Shown: positions 44,635 through 51,317, counted from the stretch's first letter. The stretch: DNA of 64,000 nucleotides from Trypanosoma brucei (GCA_000002445.1 CP000071.1:160001-224000), one strand, 5' to 3'. Numbers and translations: made by a program. Notes: generated by a model from the sequence alone, not told the origin.

Positions 44635-45396
44635 TTAGAACCGCCCCCGCTTCCGATCGTTATTATTTCCGTTAAAGTTTGGTTTCGACTTGTTCCGCGG
44701 GGGTTCCTGGACGCCCCTCTGCTGCTGTTTGCTCTGCTGGGCCACATGCCCTTCGGATTTGCCCACCTTTTGTTTCTTAGCGGGGGGTTCCTCGTCCTCA
44801 TCCTCCTCCTTTTCTTGATCATCATCATCCTCATCTTCATCTTCATCATCTTCATCTTCATCATCTTCGTCATCTTCATCATCTTCCTCATCTTCGTCAT
44901 CGTCATCGTCACTGTCGTCTGTACGATCTACGACCTGTTGGCGCTTCGTTGCTGCGTTACCGTTCTTTTTCCCGTCTGTGAGTGGTACGCCTGCCATGTC
45001 ATCACCATCATCCAATCCCGTGTCTTCCCCTTCTTCTTCCTCCTCCTCCTCCTCAGCGTTGTCGTATTCCCCACTTCCACTCAAAGCAGCGGAAAGCATT
45101 CCTTCCGACTCCTGCTGATACCCACAACAATGAAGAACAGCATTTCCCTTCACACGGAAGACAACTTCTTGTTCATAACCAAAAACGATATCGACGGGAG
45201 TTTGCATCAGTTGCTGAGAAACGTCAAGAGTGAGAAGAGAAAACGATTCACCATCAACTGTCACATACAACGTGCTGCGGCCCTTCACACCGTGCTTTAC
45301 AGAAACAACAGAAAGGTGAAATGAGTGATGCTTTTCCAGCACCAACTTGTGTTCCTTGCCCGGAACGACCTCGAAACCATGAAACATGGGCGCCAT
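44635..45396 (-). CDS. nucleoplasmin-like (HD2/FKBP-N-terminal type) domain protein with acidic tract and basic tail; NOPP44/46 paralog
   Basis: 253 aa. N-terminus MAPMFHGFEVVPGKEHKLVL...GNAVLHCCGYQ has the same pattern as the NOPP-array N-terminal domain and plant HD2 (MEFWGxEVxxG...GSVxxxGY). It is followed by a long D/E tract (nt ~44800-44935, GAT/GAA repeats) and a basic C-terminus (KKQKVGK...RKRGRF). Confidence 0.65.
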   Translation of the reverse strand: MAPMFHGFEVVPGKEHKLVLEKHHSFHLSVVSVKHGVKGRSTLYVTVDGESFSLLTLDVSQQLMQTPVDIVFGYEQEVVFRVKGNAVLHCCGYQQESEGMLSAALSGSGEYDNAEEEEEEEEGEDTGLDDGDDMAGVPLTDGKKNGNAATKRQQVVDRTDDSDDDDDEDEEDDEDDEDDEDEDDEDEDEDDDDQEKEEDEDEEPPAKKQKVGKSEGHVAQQSKQQQRGVQEPPRNKSKPNFNGNNNDRKRGRF

Positions 45397-46139
45397 TGCT
45401 TTCTCACTTTATGCTTTTCGGTAGAGCACAAACTTGAAAAAAATATCGGGTTTCAGTTACGAAAGTAAAAAAAACGAATAATCGGATAGAAGGGGAAAAC
45501 AAAGTAAAGGAGGGATTGAAACCAGCAATAAGAGTATTAAAGAAAAAAATTAGTAGCAGCAGGTCTTGGCAAACTGAACAGTTATCAATCAACCCAATAG
45601 GCCATAGCCACCTGCAAGAAAAAAGAAGGGAGGGTCAATAAACAGAAAACTAATGCGAAGAGAACACACACCACACGTCCAATGATTTAAAAAAAAACAA
45701 AAGAGAATTGCACAGGCACATGACCCCGCACTTCACTCAAACATTAACTACCTGAAGGAAAGAAAAAAACAACATACAACGAATTACGTCACACCCTATA
45801 ACATAACATCATCATCGAAAGTACAAGTTCGCATGCCTTAGTACAACCAAAAATTAAATTTTATATCGTTACAAATGGTCAACCAACCAAAAGACACGAA
45901 AATAGATTATTCAAGATGCAATTTATGAACAGTTTGAAACGCAATCAACAAAAACAGAGAAAGATTCGCAATAAGATTTAACATATCGACTAAAAACGAA
46001 AAAAAAAAGATCAATTAGTTGTGGCCTACAAGCAAACAACAACAAATTTACAAACGATGATAGAGCAAAAGGAACAACAATATTCCAAGAGGATTAATAA
46101 CTGAAGTGAAACAACAGGTCATATTACAAAGAGCGCCAG

Positions 46140-46199
46140 NNNNNNNNNNNNNNNNNNNNNNNNNNNNNNNNNNNNNNNNNNNNNNNNNNNNNNNNNNNN
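46140..46199. other. assembly gap (60 N)
   Basis: Run of n characters that interrupts a NOPP-family copy. Confidence 0.99.
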
Positions 46200-46559
46200 A
46201 GTCAAATGCACTGAGCCAGAACCCGTGGCGGAAAGAGTGGTTCCCTGCTCTGCGGTTAACACGAGGTCGATGCCCATTTGAAATAGGCTCCGCTTGGGGT
46301 CAAGCGTGGCAATGGTAAATTCCTTCCCCTGAAAGGATATCACAAGAGTAATAGCACCACTTGCATTCGCAGGCACAGCAATTTGTGTGAGACGAAGTAC
46401 GTGGTCTTCGGGTATCTTCGGTTTGACCTTCTGCCCGGCACTCACTTCAACACCGTAGAAACCCTTCACAAATGTTAAATGCAATACGCCTTTACTAATG
46501 GAAAATACAAAATGAATCGGAGACAACGGTGAAAGCATAGATAAGGGAAAGCGTAACAC
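46200..46559 (-). pseudogene. NOPP44/46-type array boundary copy (copy A): N-terminal domain only, canonical ATG lost, 3' part missing in assembly gap
   Basis: nt 46200-46470 are identical to the N-terminal-domain coding segment of the intact copy at 49640-49907. Homology ends exactly at the start codon (ATGGAG becomes GTGAAG). The upstream flank is unrelated. The ORF runs into the 60-N gap at 46140-46199. Confidence 0.45.
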
Positions 46560-46869
46560 TGACGTACGCTACCAAACAATAGGCAAACACAGGGAAAAAA
46601 CACAGTCACATTCAATGTGTCGAAACCTCTGTGTTTTTCTGTTACCAAGCCACCTCCATGACAGGCAAATCATGTCACATCACGAACGCTTTCATTTTCG
46701 AACGCTTAATTACCATTATAGAAGCCCAAATAATCATTATTTCTACCCCACCCAATCCCATTTATGTCTCAGTTTCTTCTTCGCTCGTAAAATATCTCTG
46801 CATTTAGATGCGTTACCGATGTTTTCGTTGCTAAAACACATACTAACAAATAACAACAAATATTTACCA

Positions 46870-47158
46870 CAACTGAAGGTAGAGAAATGTGGTCGCTCAA
46901 GCGGTGCATGTCAGTACAAGCACAAACATTAATAACAATATCACAATTTCTCCATGCCTCCACGTGCAACACAACATCCGAACATGAGGGGATATATCGT
47001 CATCACACGTATCAATCATAGAACACGAGTGTAATAAGAGGTTAGCCTCGTAGTCAAATGCATAAACGGGAATAATAATGAGGCATATATCACGTATTCC
47101 ATAAGATTACTCTCTCAGTTACAACAATGCGGCACATCACATGGCACATATATCATTT
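46870..47158 (-). repeat. conserved ~290-bp 3'-flank/3'UTR segment of NOPP-family genes (copy 1 of 3)
   Basis: Near-identical sequence recurs at 48632-48920 and 50294-50582, starting caactgaaggtagagaaatgtggtcgctcaagcggtgcatgtcagtacaagcac. Confidence 0.8.
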
Positions 47159-49907: not shown

Positions 49908-50145
49908 TGCTGCCGATTGGAATGTAATTTATCTACCACCATTGCAAGACAAAGTCAGGTATTGCGAGGAAAGAGAGAAAAGGTTACAAACTCCAAGGGG
50001 CAAAGAGTAAAAAATACAAAAAAAAACACCGCCATCGGACAAAACACACAAAATGAAAGTGTTATTACCCAAAAGTAAGTACCAGGAAACAGATTCCATT
50101 ATATGCAAAGCGACCTATCACCTTCTTCCACATCCTCTGTCCCTC

Positions 50146-50582
50146 CCACTCTCATCATTATCCTTTGTTATCATTATTATTCTTATTCACGCTGATTCAT
50201 CGTTTATATTTTCTCTCCTTATATTACTCAACCATTTCTTTAGTGTCCTCTAACGCTGTCCATAATTTCAAGCGCAAGAAAAACGTTGCACTACAACTGA
50301 AGGTAGAGAAATGTGGTCGCTCAAGCGGTGCATGTCAGTACAAGCACAAACATTAATAACAATATCACAATTTCTCCATGCCTCCACGTGCAACACAACA
50401 TCCGAACATGAGGGGATATATCGTCATCACACGTATCAATCATAGAACACGAGTGTAATAAGAGGTTAGCCTCGTAGTCAAATGCATAAACGGGAATAAT
50501 AATGAGGCATATATCACGTATTCCATAAGATTACCCTCTCAGTTACAACAATGCGGCACATCACATGGCACATATATCATTT
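50146..50582 (-). repeat. NOPP array intergenic repeat unit (copy 3)
   Basis: Same sequence as 48484-48920. Confidence 0.8.
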
Positions 50583-50606
50583 TTAGTAACGACACCTCCC
50601 AGAGTT
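50565..50606 (-). other. 3' end (C-terminal ...GNSGRGRY-stop equivalent) of a further NOPP44/46 copy, truncated by assembly gap
   Basis: The sequence atggcacatatatcatttttagtaacgacacctcccagagtt matches the 3' end and downstream flank of the copies at 47140-47180 and 48902-48942, then runs into N's at 50607-50666. Confidence 0.6.
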
Positions 50607-50666
50607 NNNNNNNNNNNNNNNNNNNNNNNNNNNNNNNNNNNNNNNNNNNNNNNNNNNNNNNNNNNN
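50607..50666. other. assembly gap (60 N)
   Basis: Run of n characters. Sequence identity to the array is lost on the far side. Confidence 0.99.
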
Positions 50667-51317
50667 ACCTTCGCACAGCCTCTGTTGGGTGGGCAAACCT
50701 CTGGCAGAAGGGAGTGGATAAGATCTCTTGCGCCACGCACATCGTCCCACGACGTACAGTGAATATTGCCTTTCTCTTCATCCGTACTGTTGGGAAACTA
50801 AGCGCCTGCGATTATATACACCAACTCTGTGACTATTGTTGTCGGCGAAGCATCCCAGAAGGAGGTTCCTCATAAAGTTAACATTCACCTACAAATACGG
50901 CACGCTAAGGTGGGTGGTGAAGAAACGGGAAGGTCCGGTGACAGTAATTTGTCTACTTTTGAGGGAAATCACCAGATGTAACCGAACCACTTTGCATCTT
51001 TGGTGGCGGAGATCCGCATGATTCAGAGAACGCCTTTCATCGGTATTTTCGTCCCCACCTATTCAAACTATGGTTTAGCTTATCATTACTGTGGAAACCT
51101 TCTCCGTCTCGTTTTTCTAGAAACAGCAGTGTACTATGCTGTGCTTTCAGCGGGACAAGAGGTGGAGGGCCAAAGTACGTACCTTTTCAATTTATACACT
51201 ACATTATCTTGCAATGTGGGATGGTCCCACCATAATACAAGTTTTCTATTGTTTTGTTGGTGTTTTCGCGGAGCAATGACGAACCTTCACTTATTTTCGC
51301 GTTTGATCTATGCTCCC

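What the first reader, a model, noticed from the sequence alone, without database searches (positions are those of the whole stretch)
44635..50670. Clustered family of nucleoplasmin-like (HD2/FKBP-NTD-type) genes: NOPP44/46 tandem array plus two diversified paralogs
Five gene units share one N-terminal ~100-aa domain (MEGFYGVEV..G..V.....E..VLRLTQIAV...............F.IA.LDP......MGIDLV.......LSATG.GSVH.TGY). Their C-terminal modules differ. Copy C has a D/E tract plus GGNRGNFRGGDRGG RGG box. Copy B has a Y/G/R-rich tail without an acidic tract. The 253-aa gene has an acidic tract plus a Lys/Arg tail. This is a locally expanding and diversifying family of probable nucleolar histone-chaperone/RNA-binding proteins. 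The differing domain architectures next to each other suggest recent neofunctionalisation. Homogenised flanks (see the repeat features) indicate gene conversion.
Basis: partly seen in the sequence, partly recalled or inferred. Interest (0 to 1): 0.7.

Follow-up and report, generated by a model that had tools for sequence, protein, structure and literature searches.

The report
Trypanosome NOPP44/46 nucleoplasmin-like gene cluster
This is the already annotated Trypanosoma brucei chromosome 8 cluster of nucleolar NOPP44/46-family genes, whose shared N-terminal domain does have the nucleoplasmin-like fold, but most of the paralog diversity is ancient rather than recent.

Summary
The window is T. 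brucei TREU927 chromosome 8. By gene order, the finding covers Tb927.8.730 to .760. All genes lie on the minus strand.

Four nucleoplasmin-like (NPL) domains are visible, not five:
- NOPP44/46-1 (328 aa)
- NOPP44/46-2 (366 aa)
- a truncated copy
- a divergent 253-aa gene

The fifth "unit" is only 24 nt of coding end plus 3'UTR beside a 60-N gap.

All four domains match Pfam NPL (PF17800) at E 1e-16 to 1e-18. AlphaFold models (pLDDT 91-93) match plant HDT and FKBP43 N-terminal domains, FKBP39 and the NPM1 core at TM about 0.8. The fold claim is therefore supported.

"Recent neofunctionalisation" holds only for the 366-aa paralog, whose tail has no homolog outside Trypanozoon. The 253-aa type and the NOPP44/46 type sit side by side at the syntenic locus in Angomonas, Phytomonas, T. 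theileri and T. vivax, so that split predates the trypanosomatid radiation.

Gene conversion is supported. The flanks are at least 99% identical while the NPL coding regions have dS of about 0.7.

Histone-chaperone activity and pentamer formation remain untested. Overall this is known biology, correctly read, with small additions.

The parts
48921..49907 (-). NOPP44/46-1 gene (328 aa; by gene order Tb927.8.760). NPL domain at 49614-49907, acidic tract at about 49167-49622, RGG box at about 48924-49136.
   Evidence: ORF. Pfam NPL E 3e-18. AlphaFold2 model pLDDT 93, with Foldseek matches to HDT2, FKBP43 N-terminal domain and NPM1. Tail composition. 36- and 81-nt tandem repeats in the RGG-coding DNA.
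47159..48259 (-). NOPP44/46-2 gene (366 aa; Tb927.8.750). NPL domain at 47966-48259. Tyr/Gly/Arg-rich tail at 47162-47965, with no acidic tract.
   Evidence: Exact match to AAZ12846, CBH13083 and SCU66017, 'nucleolar RNA-binding protein, putative'. Pfam NPL E 8e-17. The tail has no homolog among 1.84 billion representative proteins apart from itself and one short glycine/arginine-rich (RGG-like) match. The NPL domain is 71% identical in amino acids to NOPP44/46-1, with dS 0.72 and dN 0.16.
46119..46538 (-). Truncated NPL ORF (by gene order Tb927.8.740). NPL codons 3-92 lie at 46200-46468 and are 99.6% identical to 49638-49906. It has a different 5' flank with an in-frame upstream ATG at 46536-46538, and it ends ...VHLT|LALFVI*. 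It is interrupted by the 60-N run 46140-46199.
   Evidence: Pfam NPL E 2e-16. The same junction without Ns is annotated 'truncated' in T. b. gambiense. A T. equiperdum contig begins 21 nt before the junction and reads across it.
44635..45396 (-). 253-aa NPL gene (by gene order Tb927.8.730). NPL domain at 45100-45396 with the His-Ser-Asp signature, acidic tract at about 44782-45087, basic Lys/Arg tail at about 44638-44781.
   Evidence: Exact match to AAZ12844 / XP_846910. Pfam NPL E 7e-16. Model pLDDT 91, with Foldseek matches to HDT2, FKBP43 N-terminal domain and FKBP39. Orthologs occupy the same position in four other trypanosomatids.
50147..50606 (-). Stub of a further NOPP44/46-1 unit: the last 24 nt of a coding sequence plus its 3'UTR, 99.8% identical to 48485-48944.
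   Evidence: It abuts the 60-N gap, so the rest of this unit, and any further units, are missing from the assembly.
50607..50666 (.). Assembly gap (60 N) at the head of the NOPP44/46 array.
   Evidence: T. b. gambiense joins the two edges directly at the same bases.
46866..47194 (-). Homogenised 3' block of the 366-aa gene: the last 36 nt of coding sequence plus about 293 nt of 3'UTR, 99% identical to 48628-48956 and 50290-50606.
48485..48944 (-). 3' block of NOPP44/46-1: the last 24 nt of coding sequence plus 3'UTR, repeated at 50147-50606.
48260..48300 (-). Conserved 40 nt immediately upstream of the ATG of the 366-aa gene. 39 of 40 positions match 49908-49947; similarity is lost further upstream.
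43348..43830 (-). Downstream synteny anchor: an FeS_assembly_P (MIP18-like) gene. It follows the 253-type gene in every trypanosomatid locus examined.
   Evidence: Pfam PF01883 E 5e-8. Loci compared.

Best explanation
The region is the conserved trypanosomatid cluster of nucleoplasmin-like (NPL) genes on T. brucei chromosome 8. It is transcribed as part of one minus-strand polycistron.

Each gene encodes an N-terminal beta-sandwich of about 95 aa with the nucleoplasmin / NPM1 / FKBP39 / HD2 fold. In the solved relatives this domain assembles into pentamers and displays five disordered tails.

The tails specify what each pentamer binds:
- NOPP44/46-1 carries a long acidic tract plus an RGG box. 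It is the known nucleolar RNA-binding phosphoprotein needed for large-subunit ribosome biogenesis. I infer that it works like nucleophosmin or S. pombe Fkbp39, as a multivalent acidic/RNA-binding nucleolar scaffold.
- The 253-aa gene is an ancient paralog with the classical nucleoplasmin layout (core, acidic tracts, basic tail). It keeps the His-Ser-Asp signature of HD2 and FKBP39.
- NOPP44/46-2 is a duplicate of NOPP44/46 specific to the T. brucei lineage. Its acidic tract has been replaced by a Tyr/Gly/Arg-rich low-complexity tail.

The NOPP44/46-type units are kept partly uniform by gene conversion or unequal crossing-over. These processes homogenise the 5' leader, the last 12 codons and the 3'UTR, while the coding cores diverge.

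Shown here: gene identity, domain family, predicted fold, synteny, paralog ages, and the mosaic identity pattern.
Inferred: pentamer formation, the scaffold mechanism, and any histone binding.
For: - Identity: the 253-aa and 366-aa proteins match deposited T. brucei TREU927 proteins exactly. The gene names and the role in ribosome biogenesis come from PMC6299225 and PMC2864271.
- Domain: Pfam PF17800 in all four copies and in the orthologs. Best PDB sequence hits are HDT2, HDT1 and FKBP39, each deposited with five chains.
- Fold: models at pLDDT 93 and 91. Foldseek top hits are HDT1-4, FKBP43 and FKBP53 N-terminal domains, FKBP39, NPM1 core, NO38 and PfNPM, at E about 1e-7 and TM 0.75-0.82.
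- Signature residues: R26-T28-D68 in NOPP44/46-1 and -2, and H27-S29-D69 in the 253-aa gene (alignments), matching the two triads described in PMC4414354.
- Ancient paralogy: syntenic loci in Angomonas and Phytomonas hold a short NPL gene, a NOPP44/46 type and a 253 type directly upstream of FeS_assembly_P. T. theileri and T. vivax hold a NOPP44/46 array plus a 253 type. Bootstrap support is 500/500 for the 253-type clade and 473/500 for the NOPP44/46 clade.
- Lineage-specific paralog: Tb366 groups with Tb328 in 472 of 500 replicates. Paralog dS is 0.72 while interspecies dS is saturated. The tail has no homolog elsewhere, and T. vivax has no such gene at the locus.
- Conversion mosaic: flanks are at least 99% identical against 78% identity in the NPL coding region.
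- Functional analogue: S. pombe NPL protein Fkbp39 sorts nascent 60S subunits by phase separation (PMC9949351).
Against:
- No evidence bears on histone binding. The published NOPP44/46 work concerns RNA binding and 60S biogenesis, not chromatin.
- The 366-aa paralog lacks the acidic tract that accompanies NPL domains in the described architectures, so a nucleoplasmin-style mechanism may not apply to it.
- Grouping of Tb366 with Tb328 could partly reflect gene conversion rather than a young duplication.
- The two 60-N gaps leave copy number unresolved. A T. equiperdum contig (L009) joins the variant 5' flank to a full-length NOPP44/46 reading frame, which conflicts with the truncated reading unless that contig is chimeric.
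Confidence: 0.8

Rival explanations
1. One reading: all the differing architectures arose by recent local duplication and neofunctionalisation within the T. brucei lineage.
For: The 366-aa paralog groups with T. brucei NOPP44/46-1 (472/500). Its tail has no homolog outside Trypanozoon. Near-identical flanks show recent sequence exchange.
Against: The 253-type gene and the NOPP44/46 type are already separate, adjacent genes in Angomonas, Phytomonas, T. theileri and T. vivax. The 253-type clade has 500/500 support. The two types are only 31% identical in T. brucei. Even the 366/328 pair has dS of about 0.7, which is not recent in absolute terms.
Confidence: 0.1
2. The apparent paralog diversity is an assembly artefact of a collapsed tandem array.
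For: Two 60-N gaps lie inside the cluster. The truncated copy and the 3' stub both abut gaps. T. b. gambiense joins the same edges directly at the same bases. A T. equiperdum contig gives a different join.
Against: - The 366-aa protein is identical in three independently sequenced Trypanozoon genomes.
- It is detected as a separate protein in proteomics (PMC6299225 and PMC12816148).
- The junction from NOPP44/46-1 into the 366-aa gene is reproduced in a T. equiperdum contig.
- The truncation junction VHLT|LALFVI is read across in both T. b. gambiense and T. equiperdum.
- The 253-aa gene lies in unique sequence.
- An independent T. vivax assembly without gaps also ends its array in a truncated NPL copy.
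Only the copy number of NOPP44/46-1 is likely to be an artefact.
Confidence: 0.05
3. The near-identical flanks reflect strong purifying selection on shared regulatory elements in the UTRs, giving co-regulation of the paralogs, rather than gene conversion.
For: Trypanosome mRNA levels are set largely by 3'UTRs (established knowledge). The identical blocks coincide with the 5' leader and the 3'UTR.
Against: Identity of 99% or more over 329-460 nt, including synonymous positions in the last 12 codons, with sharp boundaries next to sequence that cannot be aligned, is far tighter than selection on UTR motifs normally produces. The adjacent coding region under purifying selection has dS of about 0.7. 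The truncated copy is 99.6% identical to NOPP44/46-1 over 269 nt.
Confidence: 0.1
4. The NPL domains are enzymes (HD2-type histone deacetylases) that use the conserved His/Asp residues.
For: The 253-aa gene keeps His-Ser-Asp at the positions once proposed to be catalytic (PMC4414354).
Against: PMC4414354 reports that these residues line the closed central pore and found the data more consistent with no deacetylase or hydrolase activity. NOPP44/46-1 and -2 have Arg-Thr-Asp, and Arg cannot replace a catalytic His.
Confidence: 0.03

Closest known systems
T. brucei NOPP44/46 (Tb927.8.760 NOPP44/46-1 and Tb927.8.750 NOPP44/46-2)
   Same: These are the same genes. The 366-aa protein matches the database entry exactly. 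The 328-aa protein has the published architecture of acidic region plus RGG box. Nucleolar location, RNA binding, arginine methylation, the role in 60S biogenesis and the growth defect on RNAi are all documented (PMC6299225, PMC2864271).
   Different: Nothing differs. The experimental literature calls the family 'trypanosome-specific' (PMC6299225, which also cites a 2005 paper whose title calls NOPP44/46 'a nonconserved phosphoprotein'). No open-access paper searched links NOPP44/46 itself to nucleoplasmin or nucleophosmin.
NPL-domain family (Pfam PF17800): Drosophila FKBP39, yeast Fpr3/Fpr4, S. pombe Fkbp39/41, plant HD2/HDT and FKBP43/53
   Same: An N-terminal NPL domain, with sequence scores above the curated threshold and a predicted fold at TM about 0.8. 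It is followed by long acidic disordered stretches. Relatives are nucleolar and tied to ribosome biogenesis. Both signature triads are present: His-Ser-Asp and Arg-Thr-Asp.
   Different: There is no C-terminal FKBP isomerase domain and no C2H2 zinc finger. The C-terminal module is instead an RGG box, a Tyr/Gly/Arg-rich tail, or a short basic tail. This is a fourth architecture beside the three listed in PMC4414354.
Nucleophosmin (NPM1 / NO38) and nucleoplasmin
   Same: The predicted core fold matches (NPM1 4n8m, 2p1b and 8as5, and NO38 1xb9, at TM 0.72-0.78). The layout of core, acidic tracts and a C-terminal nucleic-acid-binding or basic region is shared. Both are nucleolar and linked to 60S biogenesis.
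   Different: No sequence-level match to the nucleoplasmin Pfam family was reported (one search lists only PF17800), and identity in structural alignments is about 20%. NPM1 ends in a folded helical domain, not an RGG box. Histone chaperoning has not been shown for the trypanosome proteins.
T. brucei NLP (Tb927.10.5450), the protein named 'nucleoplasmin-like' in the trypanosome field
   Same: It is a nuclear T. brucei protein with an acidic region and a name that points to nucleoplasmin.
   Different: NLP is 957 aa. It has a weak internal match (E 2e-3) that overlaps a Glu-rich stretch, plus an AT-hook. [quoted passage not shown] The genes here are small, carry an N-terminal NPL domain, and have strong profile and fold matches.

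Membership tests
NPL domain family (Pfam PF17800) | Sequence match to the family profile above the curated gathering score | tested here: met
   All four copies score 59-67 bits against a cut-off of 23.4 and cover profile positions 1-93 of 94 (1-89 for the truncated copy). Orthologs in four other species also match.
NPL domain family (Pfam PF17800) | Eight-stranded beta-sandwich nucleoplasmin fold | tested here: met
   AlphaFold2 models at pLDDT 93 and 91 are all-beta with 7-8 strands. Foldseek against the PDB gives HDT1-4, FKBP43/53 N-terminal domains, FKBP39, NPM1, NO38 and PfNPM at TM 0.75-0.82, probability 1.00. This is a prediction, not a solved structure.
NPL domain family (Pfam PF17800) | Domain at the extreme N-terminus, followed by more than 100 residues of highly charged, mainly acidic, disordered sequence (PMC4414354) | tested here: met
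   Met for the 328-aa and 253-aa genes. Not met for the 366-aa gene, which has no D/E run of 4 or more, nor for the truncated copy, which has no tail.
NPL domain family (Pfam PF17800) | Signature pore residues His-(Ser)-Asp, or the Fpr4 variant Arg-Thr-Asp | tested here: met
   The 253-aa gene has H27, S29 and D69. NOPP44/46-1, NOPP44/46-2 and the truncated copy have R26, T28 and D68 (alignments; residue definitions from PMC4414354).
NPL domain family (Pfam PF17800) | Homo-pentamer (or decamer) formation | not testable with these tools
   Only single-chain prediction was available. The PDB relatives were deposited with five chains each.
Nucleoplasmin / nucleophosmin proper | Sequence match to the nucleoplasmin core family | tested here: not met
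   The Pfam scan at E up to 1 lists only PF17800 for the N-terminal domain. phmmer against PDB sequences finds no NPM or nucleoplasmin chain at E up to 10. Similarity appears only at the fold level.
Nucleoplasmin / nucleophosmin proper | Histone binding and nucleosome-assembly (chaperone) activity | not testable with these tools
   No computation bears on it. The literature found concerns RNA binding and 60S biogenesis.
Plant HD2 / HDT | C-terminal C2H2 zinc finger after the NPL domain and acidic region | tested here: not met
   No zinc-finger family is reported for any paralog.
NPL-FKBP (FKBP39, Fpr3/4) | C-terminal FKBP peptidyl-prolyl isomerase domain | tested here: not met
   No FKBP family is reported for any paralog.
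NOPP44/46 family of T. brucei | Identity with the annotated genes, and the architecture of NPL, acidic tract and RGG box | tested here: met
   Exact database matches for the 366-aa and 253-aa proteins. The T. b. gambiense 323-aa protein is near-identical to the 328-aa one. There are 14 RGG motifs. The gene-number assignment follows gene order relative to DRBD17 (Tb927.8.710) and is an inference.
Tandem gene array under concerted evolution | Paralogs share near-identical blocks with sharp boundaries, while neighbouring sequence is much more diverged | tested here: met
   Flanks are at least 99% identical (329-460 nt) against 78% nucleotide identity and dS 0.72 in the NPL coding region. Boundaries fall 36 nt before the stop codon and 40 nt upstream of the ATG.

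The most novel reading that the evidence does not exclude
The locus may encode a mix-and-match set of subunits for one pentameric nucleolar scaffold. The NPL cores of NOPP44/46-1, NOPP44/46-2 and the tail-less truncated ORF are 71-99% identical, so they could co-assemble into hetero-pentamers. That would tune how many acidic/RGG tails and Tyr/Gly/Arg tails each particle carries, and with it the phase behaviour of the trypanosome nucleolus. On this reading NOPP44/46 is the kinetoplastid counterpart of nucleophosmin, and the 253-aa paralog is the true histone-binding nucleoplasmin of these organisms.

Two observations fit but prove nothing. NOPP44/46-1, Tb927.8.750 and another NPL-fold protein were recovered together in the same TbCul-D immunoprecipitation (PMC12816148). 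In S. pombe the paralog Fkbp41 recruits Fkbp39 (PMC9949351).
Probability: 0.2. Interest if true: 0.5.

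Novelty: already known. Interest (0 to 1): 0.22.

Why it matters
The practical value is in tidying the record.

- A protein family that the trypanosome literature describes as species-specific and non-conserved is a clear member of the nucleoplasmin-like superfamily. That gives a testable mechanism for its role in 60S ribosome biogenesis: a pentameric multivalent scaffold, like nucleophosmin or Fkbp39.
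- The 253-aa gene emerges as a conserved nucleoplasmin-style protein for which the targeted open-access literature searches here found nothing.
- The locus is a clean small example of concerted evolution in a trypanosome tandem array. Conversion tracts stop inside the coding sequence, and one lineage-specific paralog has a replaced tail.

None of this changes current understanding. The genes, their names and their Pfam domain are already in public databases.

Tried and rejected
- The word-index homolog search returned only short proteins (89-169 aa) for the NOPP44/46 domain and its profile, and nothing for the 253-aa domain. I could not use it to survey Leishmania, T. cruzi or T. congolense. 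I used exact-protein locus look-ups instead.
- Gene-ID literature searches for Tb927.8.730 and Tb927.8.740 only hit longer IDs such as Tb927.8.7300 and Tb927.8.7400. No open-access text on those two genes was found.
- The key NOPP44/46 paper (PMC544161) is not held.
- The supplements of the NPL paper do not say which T. brucei sequence was aligned.
- I tested whether the 366-aa tail arose by frameshift of the acidic/RGG region. tblastx shows only weak same-frame collinear similarity (a glycine/arginine-rich stretch at 47% over 34 aa) and no convincing out-of-frame match, so I rejected a frameshift origin.
- I looked for hidden RNA genes in the intergenic spacers. There were no Rfam hits at E up to 0.1 and no tRNAs in 42000-53500.
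- The plus-strand ORFs across the region (for example 48903-49652 and 44746-45324) are antisense readings of the acidic and RGG repeats, and I discarded them.
- T. b. gambiense alone was not accepted as independent proof of the gap junctions, because its contigs were ordered against TREU927 and its joins fall on exactly the same bases. The T. equiperdum contig provided the independent check for one junction only.

Full report
**What the window is.** The 253-aa and 366-aa proteins encoded at 44635-45396 and 47159-48259 (minus strand) match deposited proteins exactly. These are Trypanosoma brucei brucei TREU927 proteins AAZ12844/XP_846910 and AAZ12846, both named 'nucleolar RNA-binding protein, putative', on a 2.48-Mb contig. 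All 18 ORFs of 300 aa or more in the window lie on the minus strand, as expected for a trypanosome polycistron. The literature names Tb927.8.760 as NOPP44/46-1, Tb927.8.750 as NOPP44/46-2 and Tb927.8.710 as DRBD17 (PMC6299225). In T. b. gambiense the gene order is DRBD17-like, FeS-assembly gene, 251 aa, 119 aa, 366 aa, 323 aa. This order lets me assign the 253-aa gene to .730, the truncated copy to .740, the 366-aa gene to .750 and the 328-aa gene to .760. That assignment is an inference from order, not a look-up.

**Anatomy.** Reading along the minus strand, the locus contains:
- a 60-N gap at 50607-50666;
- a stub at 50147-50606, holding only the last 24 nt of a NOPP44/46 coding sequence plus its 3'UTR, 99.8% identical to 48485-48944;
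- the complete NOPP44/46-1 gene at 48921-49907 (328 aa);
- the 366-aa gene at 47159-48259;
- a unique spacer;
- a partial NPL-coding segment at 46200-46468, 99.6% identical to 49638-49906, without the family ATG or 5' flank;
- a second 60-N run at 46140-46199;
- 743 nt of unique sequence;
- the 253-aa gene at 44635-45396.

tblastn finds no other NPL-coding segment in the 64 kb. The cluster therefore has four visible NPL domains, not five. The 253-aa domain is 31% identical to the NOPP44/46-1 domain over 91 ungapped residues.

- The 328-aa protein has a D/E tract and then 14 RGG motifs, encoded by 36- and 81-nt tandem repeats.
- The 366-aa protein has no acidic run, and its tail is 19% Gly, 11% Arg and 6% Tyr.
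- The 253-aa protein has an acidic tract followed by a Lys/Arg-rich end.

All four copies match Pfam PF17800 (NPL) at 59-67 bits against a curated cut-off of 23.4, over essentially the whole profile. The best PDB sequence matches are Arabidopsis HDT2 (E 2e-3), HDT1, Drosophila FKBP39 and HDT3, each deposited as five chains. AlphaFold2 models of the NOPP44/46-1 and 253-aa domains are confident (pLDDT 93 and 91) and all-beta. Foldseek against the PDB returns HDT1-4, the FKBP43 and FKBP53 N-terminal domains, FKBP39, the human NPM1 core, Xenopus NO38 and Plasmodium nucleoplasmin, at E about 1e-7 and TM 0.75-0.82.

The alignments also show a difference between the paralogs. At the positions that PMC4414354 calls the signature His, Ser and Asp, the 253-aa gene has H27-S29-D69, as in HD2 and FKBP39. 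NOPP44/46-1, NOPP44/46-2 and the truncated copy have R26-T28-D68, the variant that paper describes for yeast Fpr4.

No paralog has an FKBP domain or a zinc finger. These are therefore NPL proteins with architectures other than the three listed in that paper.

**How old is the diversification?** I fetched the loci that encode homologs in other trypanosomatids.
- In Angomonas deanei and Phytomonas EM1, three NPL genes sit in a row between the ortholog of the upstream 644-aa gene (in Angomonas) and an FeS_assembly_P gene. They are a short NPL gene (114 or 153 aa), a NOPP44/46 ortholog with acidic tract and RGG box (324 or 331 aa), and an ortholog of the 253-aa gene (298 or 299 aa, with the FHLS/YHLS motif).
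- T. theileri and T. vivax have a NOPP44/46 array followed by the 253-type gene and the same FeS gene.
- The window has the same FeS gene at 43348-43830.

In a neighbour-joining analysis of 21 NPL domains, the 253-type genes form a clade in 500 of 500 bootstraps. The NOPP44/46-type genes, including the 366-aa gene, form a clade in 473 of 500. The split between the 253-aa gene and NOPP44/46 therefore predates the divergence of the trypanosomatid lineages sampled here. It is not recent neofunctionalisation.

The 366-aa gene is different.
- It groups with T. brucei NOPP44/46-1 in 472 of 500 bootstraps.
- The two NPL domains have dS 0.72 and dN 0.16, while dS against T. vivax or T. theileri is saturated.
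- T. vivax has no such gene at the locus.
- An exhaustive phmmer search of residues 102-366 against 1.84 billion representative proteins finds only the protein itself and one short glycine/arginine-rich (RGG-like) match.

This paralog therefore looks like a duplicate of NOPP44/46 in the T. brucei lineage whose tail was remodelled. Weak same-frame collinear similarity to the RGG region argues against a frameshift origin. Two cautions apply. Gene conversion could also pull the two T. brucei domains together in the tree. And I could not examine T. congolense.

**Gene conversion.** The identity pattern is a sharp mosaic. Between the 366-aa and 328-aa genes, the 40 nt upstream of the ATG match at 39 of 40 positions. 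The NPL coding region is 78% identical. The tails cannot be aligned. The last 36 nt of coding sequence plus about 293 nt of 3'UTR are 99% identical. The truncated copy differs from NOPP44/46-1 at 1 of 269 positions. Selection on UTR motifs could contribute, but this pattern is what conversion or unequal crossing-over between array members produces.

**Are the truncated copy and the stub real?** T. b. gambiense has both junctions without Ns, at exactly the bases that flank the TREU927 gaps. Its contigs were ordered against TREU927, so I did not treat this as independent evidence. A T. equiperdum contig (CZPT02000894) begins 21 nt before the truncation junction and reads straight across it...GTGCATTTGACT|CTGGCGCTC.... 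The truncation after VHLT, followed by LALFVI and a stop, is therefore very likely real. With the in-frame upstream ATG at 46536-46538 it gives the 119-aa ORF annotated as 'truncated' in T. b. gambiense. A pyrimidine-rich stretch followed by AG lies just upstream (direct reading). Expression is untested.

A second T. equiperdum contig (L009) joins the variant 5' flank to a full-length NOPP44/46 reading frame and then to the 366-aa gene. It contains its own N-run. It may be chimeric through the 269-nt repeat, and I leave this open.

An ungapped T. vivax assembly has a 1566-nt unit repeated 2.26 times and also ends in a truncated 89-aa NPL copy. Arrays ending in a partial unit are therefore normal here.

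The stub at 50147-50606 implies at least one more NOPP44/46-1 unit. The number of units is unknown.

**Mechanism.**
- Shown: identity, family, predicted fold, conservation, and the documented phenotypes. NOPP44/46 is nucleolar, binds RNA, is arginine-methylated, acts in large-subunit biogenesis, and gives a growth defect on RNAi (PMC6299225, PMC2864271).
- Inferred: the NPL core forms pentamers that present five tails. NOPP44/46-1 would then be a multivalent acidic/RNA-binding scaffold comparable to nucleophosmin, or to S. pombe Fkbp39, which partitions nascent 60S subunits away from chromatin by phase separation (PMC9949351).
- The 253-aa protein has the classical nucleoplasmin layout and is the best candidate for a histone-binding member. 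This too is inference.
- An enzymatic (deacetylase) role is unlikely, for the reasons given in PMC4414354.

**Comparison with the literature, and verdict.** The genes are annotated, NOPP44/46 has an established experimental literature, and the NPL assignment is already in Pfam and in source names for the orthologs. From memory, NOPP44/46 was first characterised in the mid-1990s. Also from memory, and not verified here, the 1998 note by Aravind and Koonin that defined the HD2/FKBP N-terminal family already included trypanosome RNA-binding proteins. The 2015 NPL paper aligns a T. brucei sequence without naming it.

The experimental trypanosome literature still describes the family as trypanosome-specific. 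No open-access paper searched connects NOPP44/46 itself with nucleoplasmin or nucleophosmin. [quoted passage not shown]

The finding is a correct reading of a known locus. Its evolutionary interpretation needs correcting, and its count of domains is one too many. The small additions from this work are:
- the conserved three-paralog synteny;
- the His-Ser-Asp versus Arg-Thr-Asp split between paralogs;
- the Trypanozoon-restricted tail of NOPP44/46-2;
- the mapped conversion boundaries.

Noticed in passing
L009 (T. equiperdum CZPT02000487.1) 1-3208, compared with window 46200-46900 and 47138-49903: This 3.2-kb contig joins the unique spacer and variant 5' flank of the 'truncated' copy to a full-length NOPP44/46 reading frame (with a 20-N run), and then to the 366-aa gene. 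That order conflicts with TREU927 and T. b. gambiense. It is either chimeric through the 269-nt NPL repeat or evidence of an extra full-length copy with an alternative N-terminus.
   Followed up: partly
L005 (T. vivax SOPI01000326.1) 6868-7983: The first of the two full NOPP44/46 copies (371 aa) reads GTTTVATVAMMATAAAS... where the second copy has the RGG box. Its C-terminus appears frameshifted, which means either an indel error in the assembly or a pseudogenised array member.
   Followed up: no
L002 10001-10345, L006 10001-10462, L007 8106-8615: Angomonas, Phytomonas and an unidentified trypanosomatid from a sequencing run each have a third, short NPL gene (114-169 aa) at the head of the cluster. 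Its tail is acidic in all three and ends in basic residues in the Phytomonas and L007 copies. No counterpart was seen in the Trypanosoma loci examined. These genes did not form a supported clade (66/500).
   Followed up: partly
P0005 and P0013 (hits): NPL proteins 69% and 51% identical to the T. brucei NOPP44/46 domain are filed under the plant bug Lygus hesperus and the ciliate Euplotes focardii (MMETSP0206). The Lygus sequence groups inside the trypanosomatid NOPP44/46 clade and may come from a trypanosomatid contaminating that transcriptome, though this was not checked. The origin of the Euplotes sequence is unclear.
   Followed up: no
window 46140-46199 and 50607-50666: Both N-runs are exactly 60 bases. 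T. b. gambiense joins their edges directly at the same bases, so they look like placeholders of arbitrary size. At least the first may have zero true length.
   Followed up: partly
window 42266-42800: This is an AT-rich stretch of low complexity (GC about 0.37-0.39 over 40-44 kb) that gives overlapping Lys/Phe-rich ORFs on both strands. It is probably intergenic or UTR sequence between the FeS-assembly gene and the DRBD17-like gene.
   Followed up: no
PMC12816148: NOPP44/46-1 and Tb927.8.750 were recovered in the same TbCul-D (CUL4-like) immunoprecipitation as Tb927.8.1230, another nucleolar T. brucei protein said to have a nucleoplasmin-like fold. This suggests a further NPL family member outside this window.
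   Followed up: no
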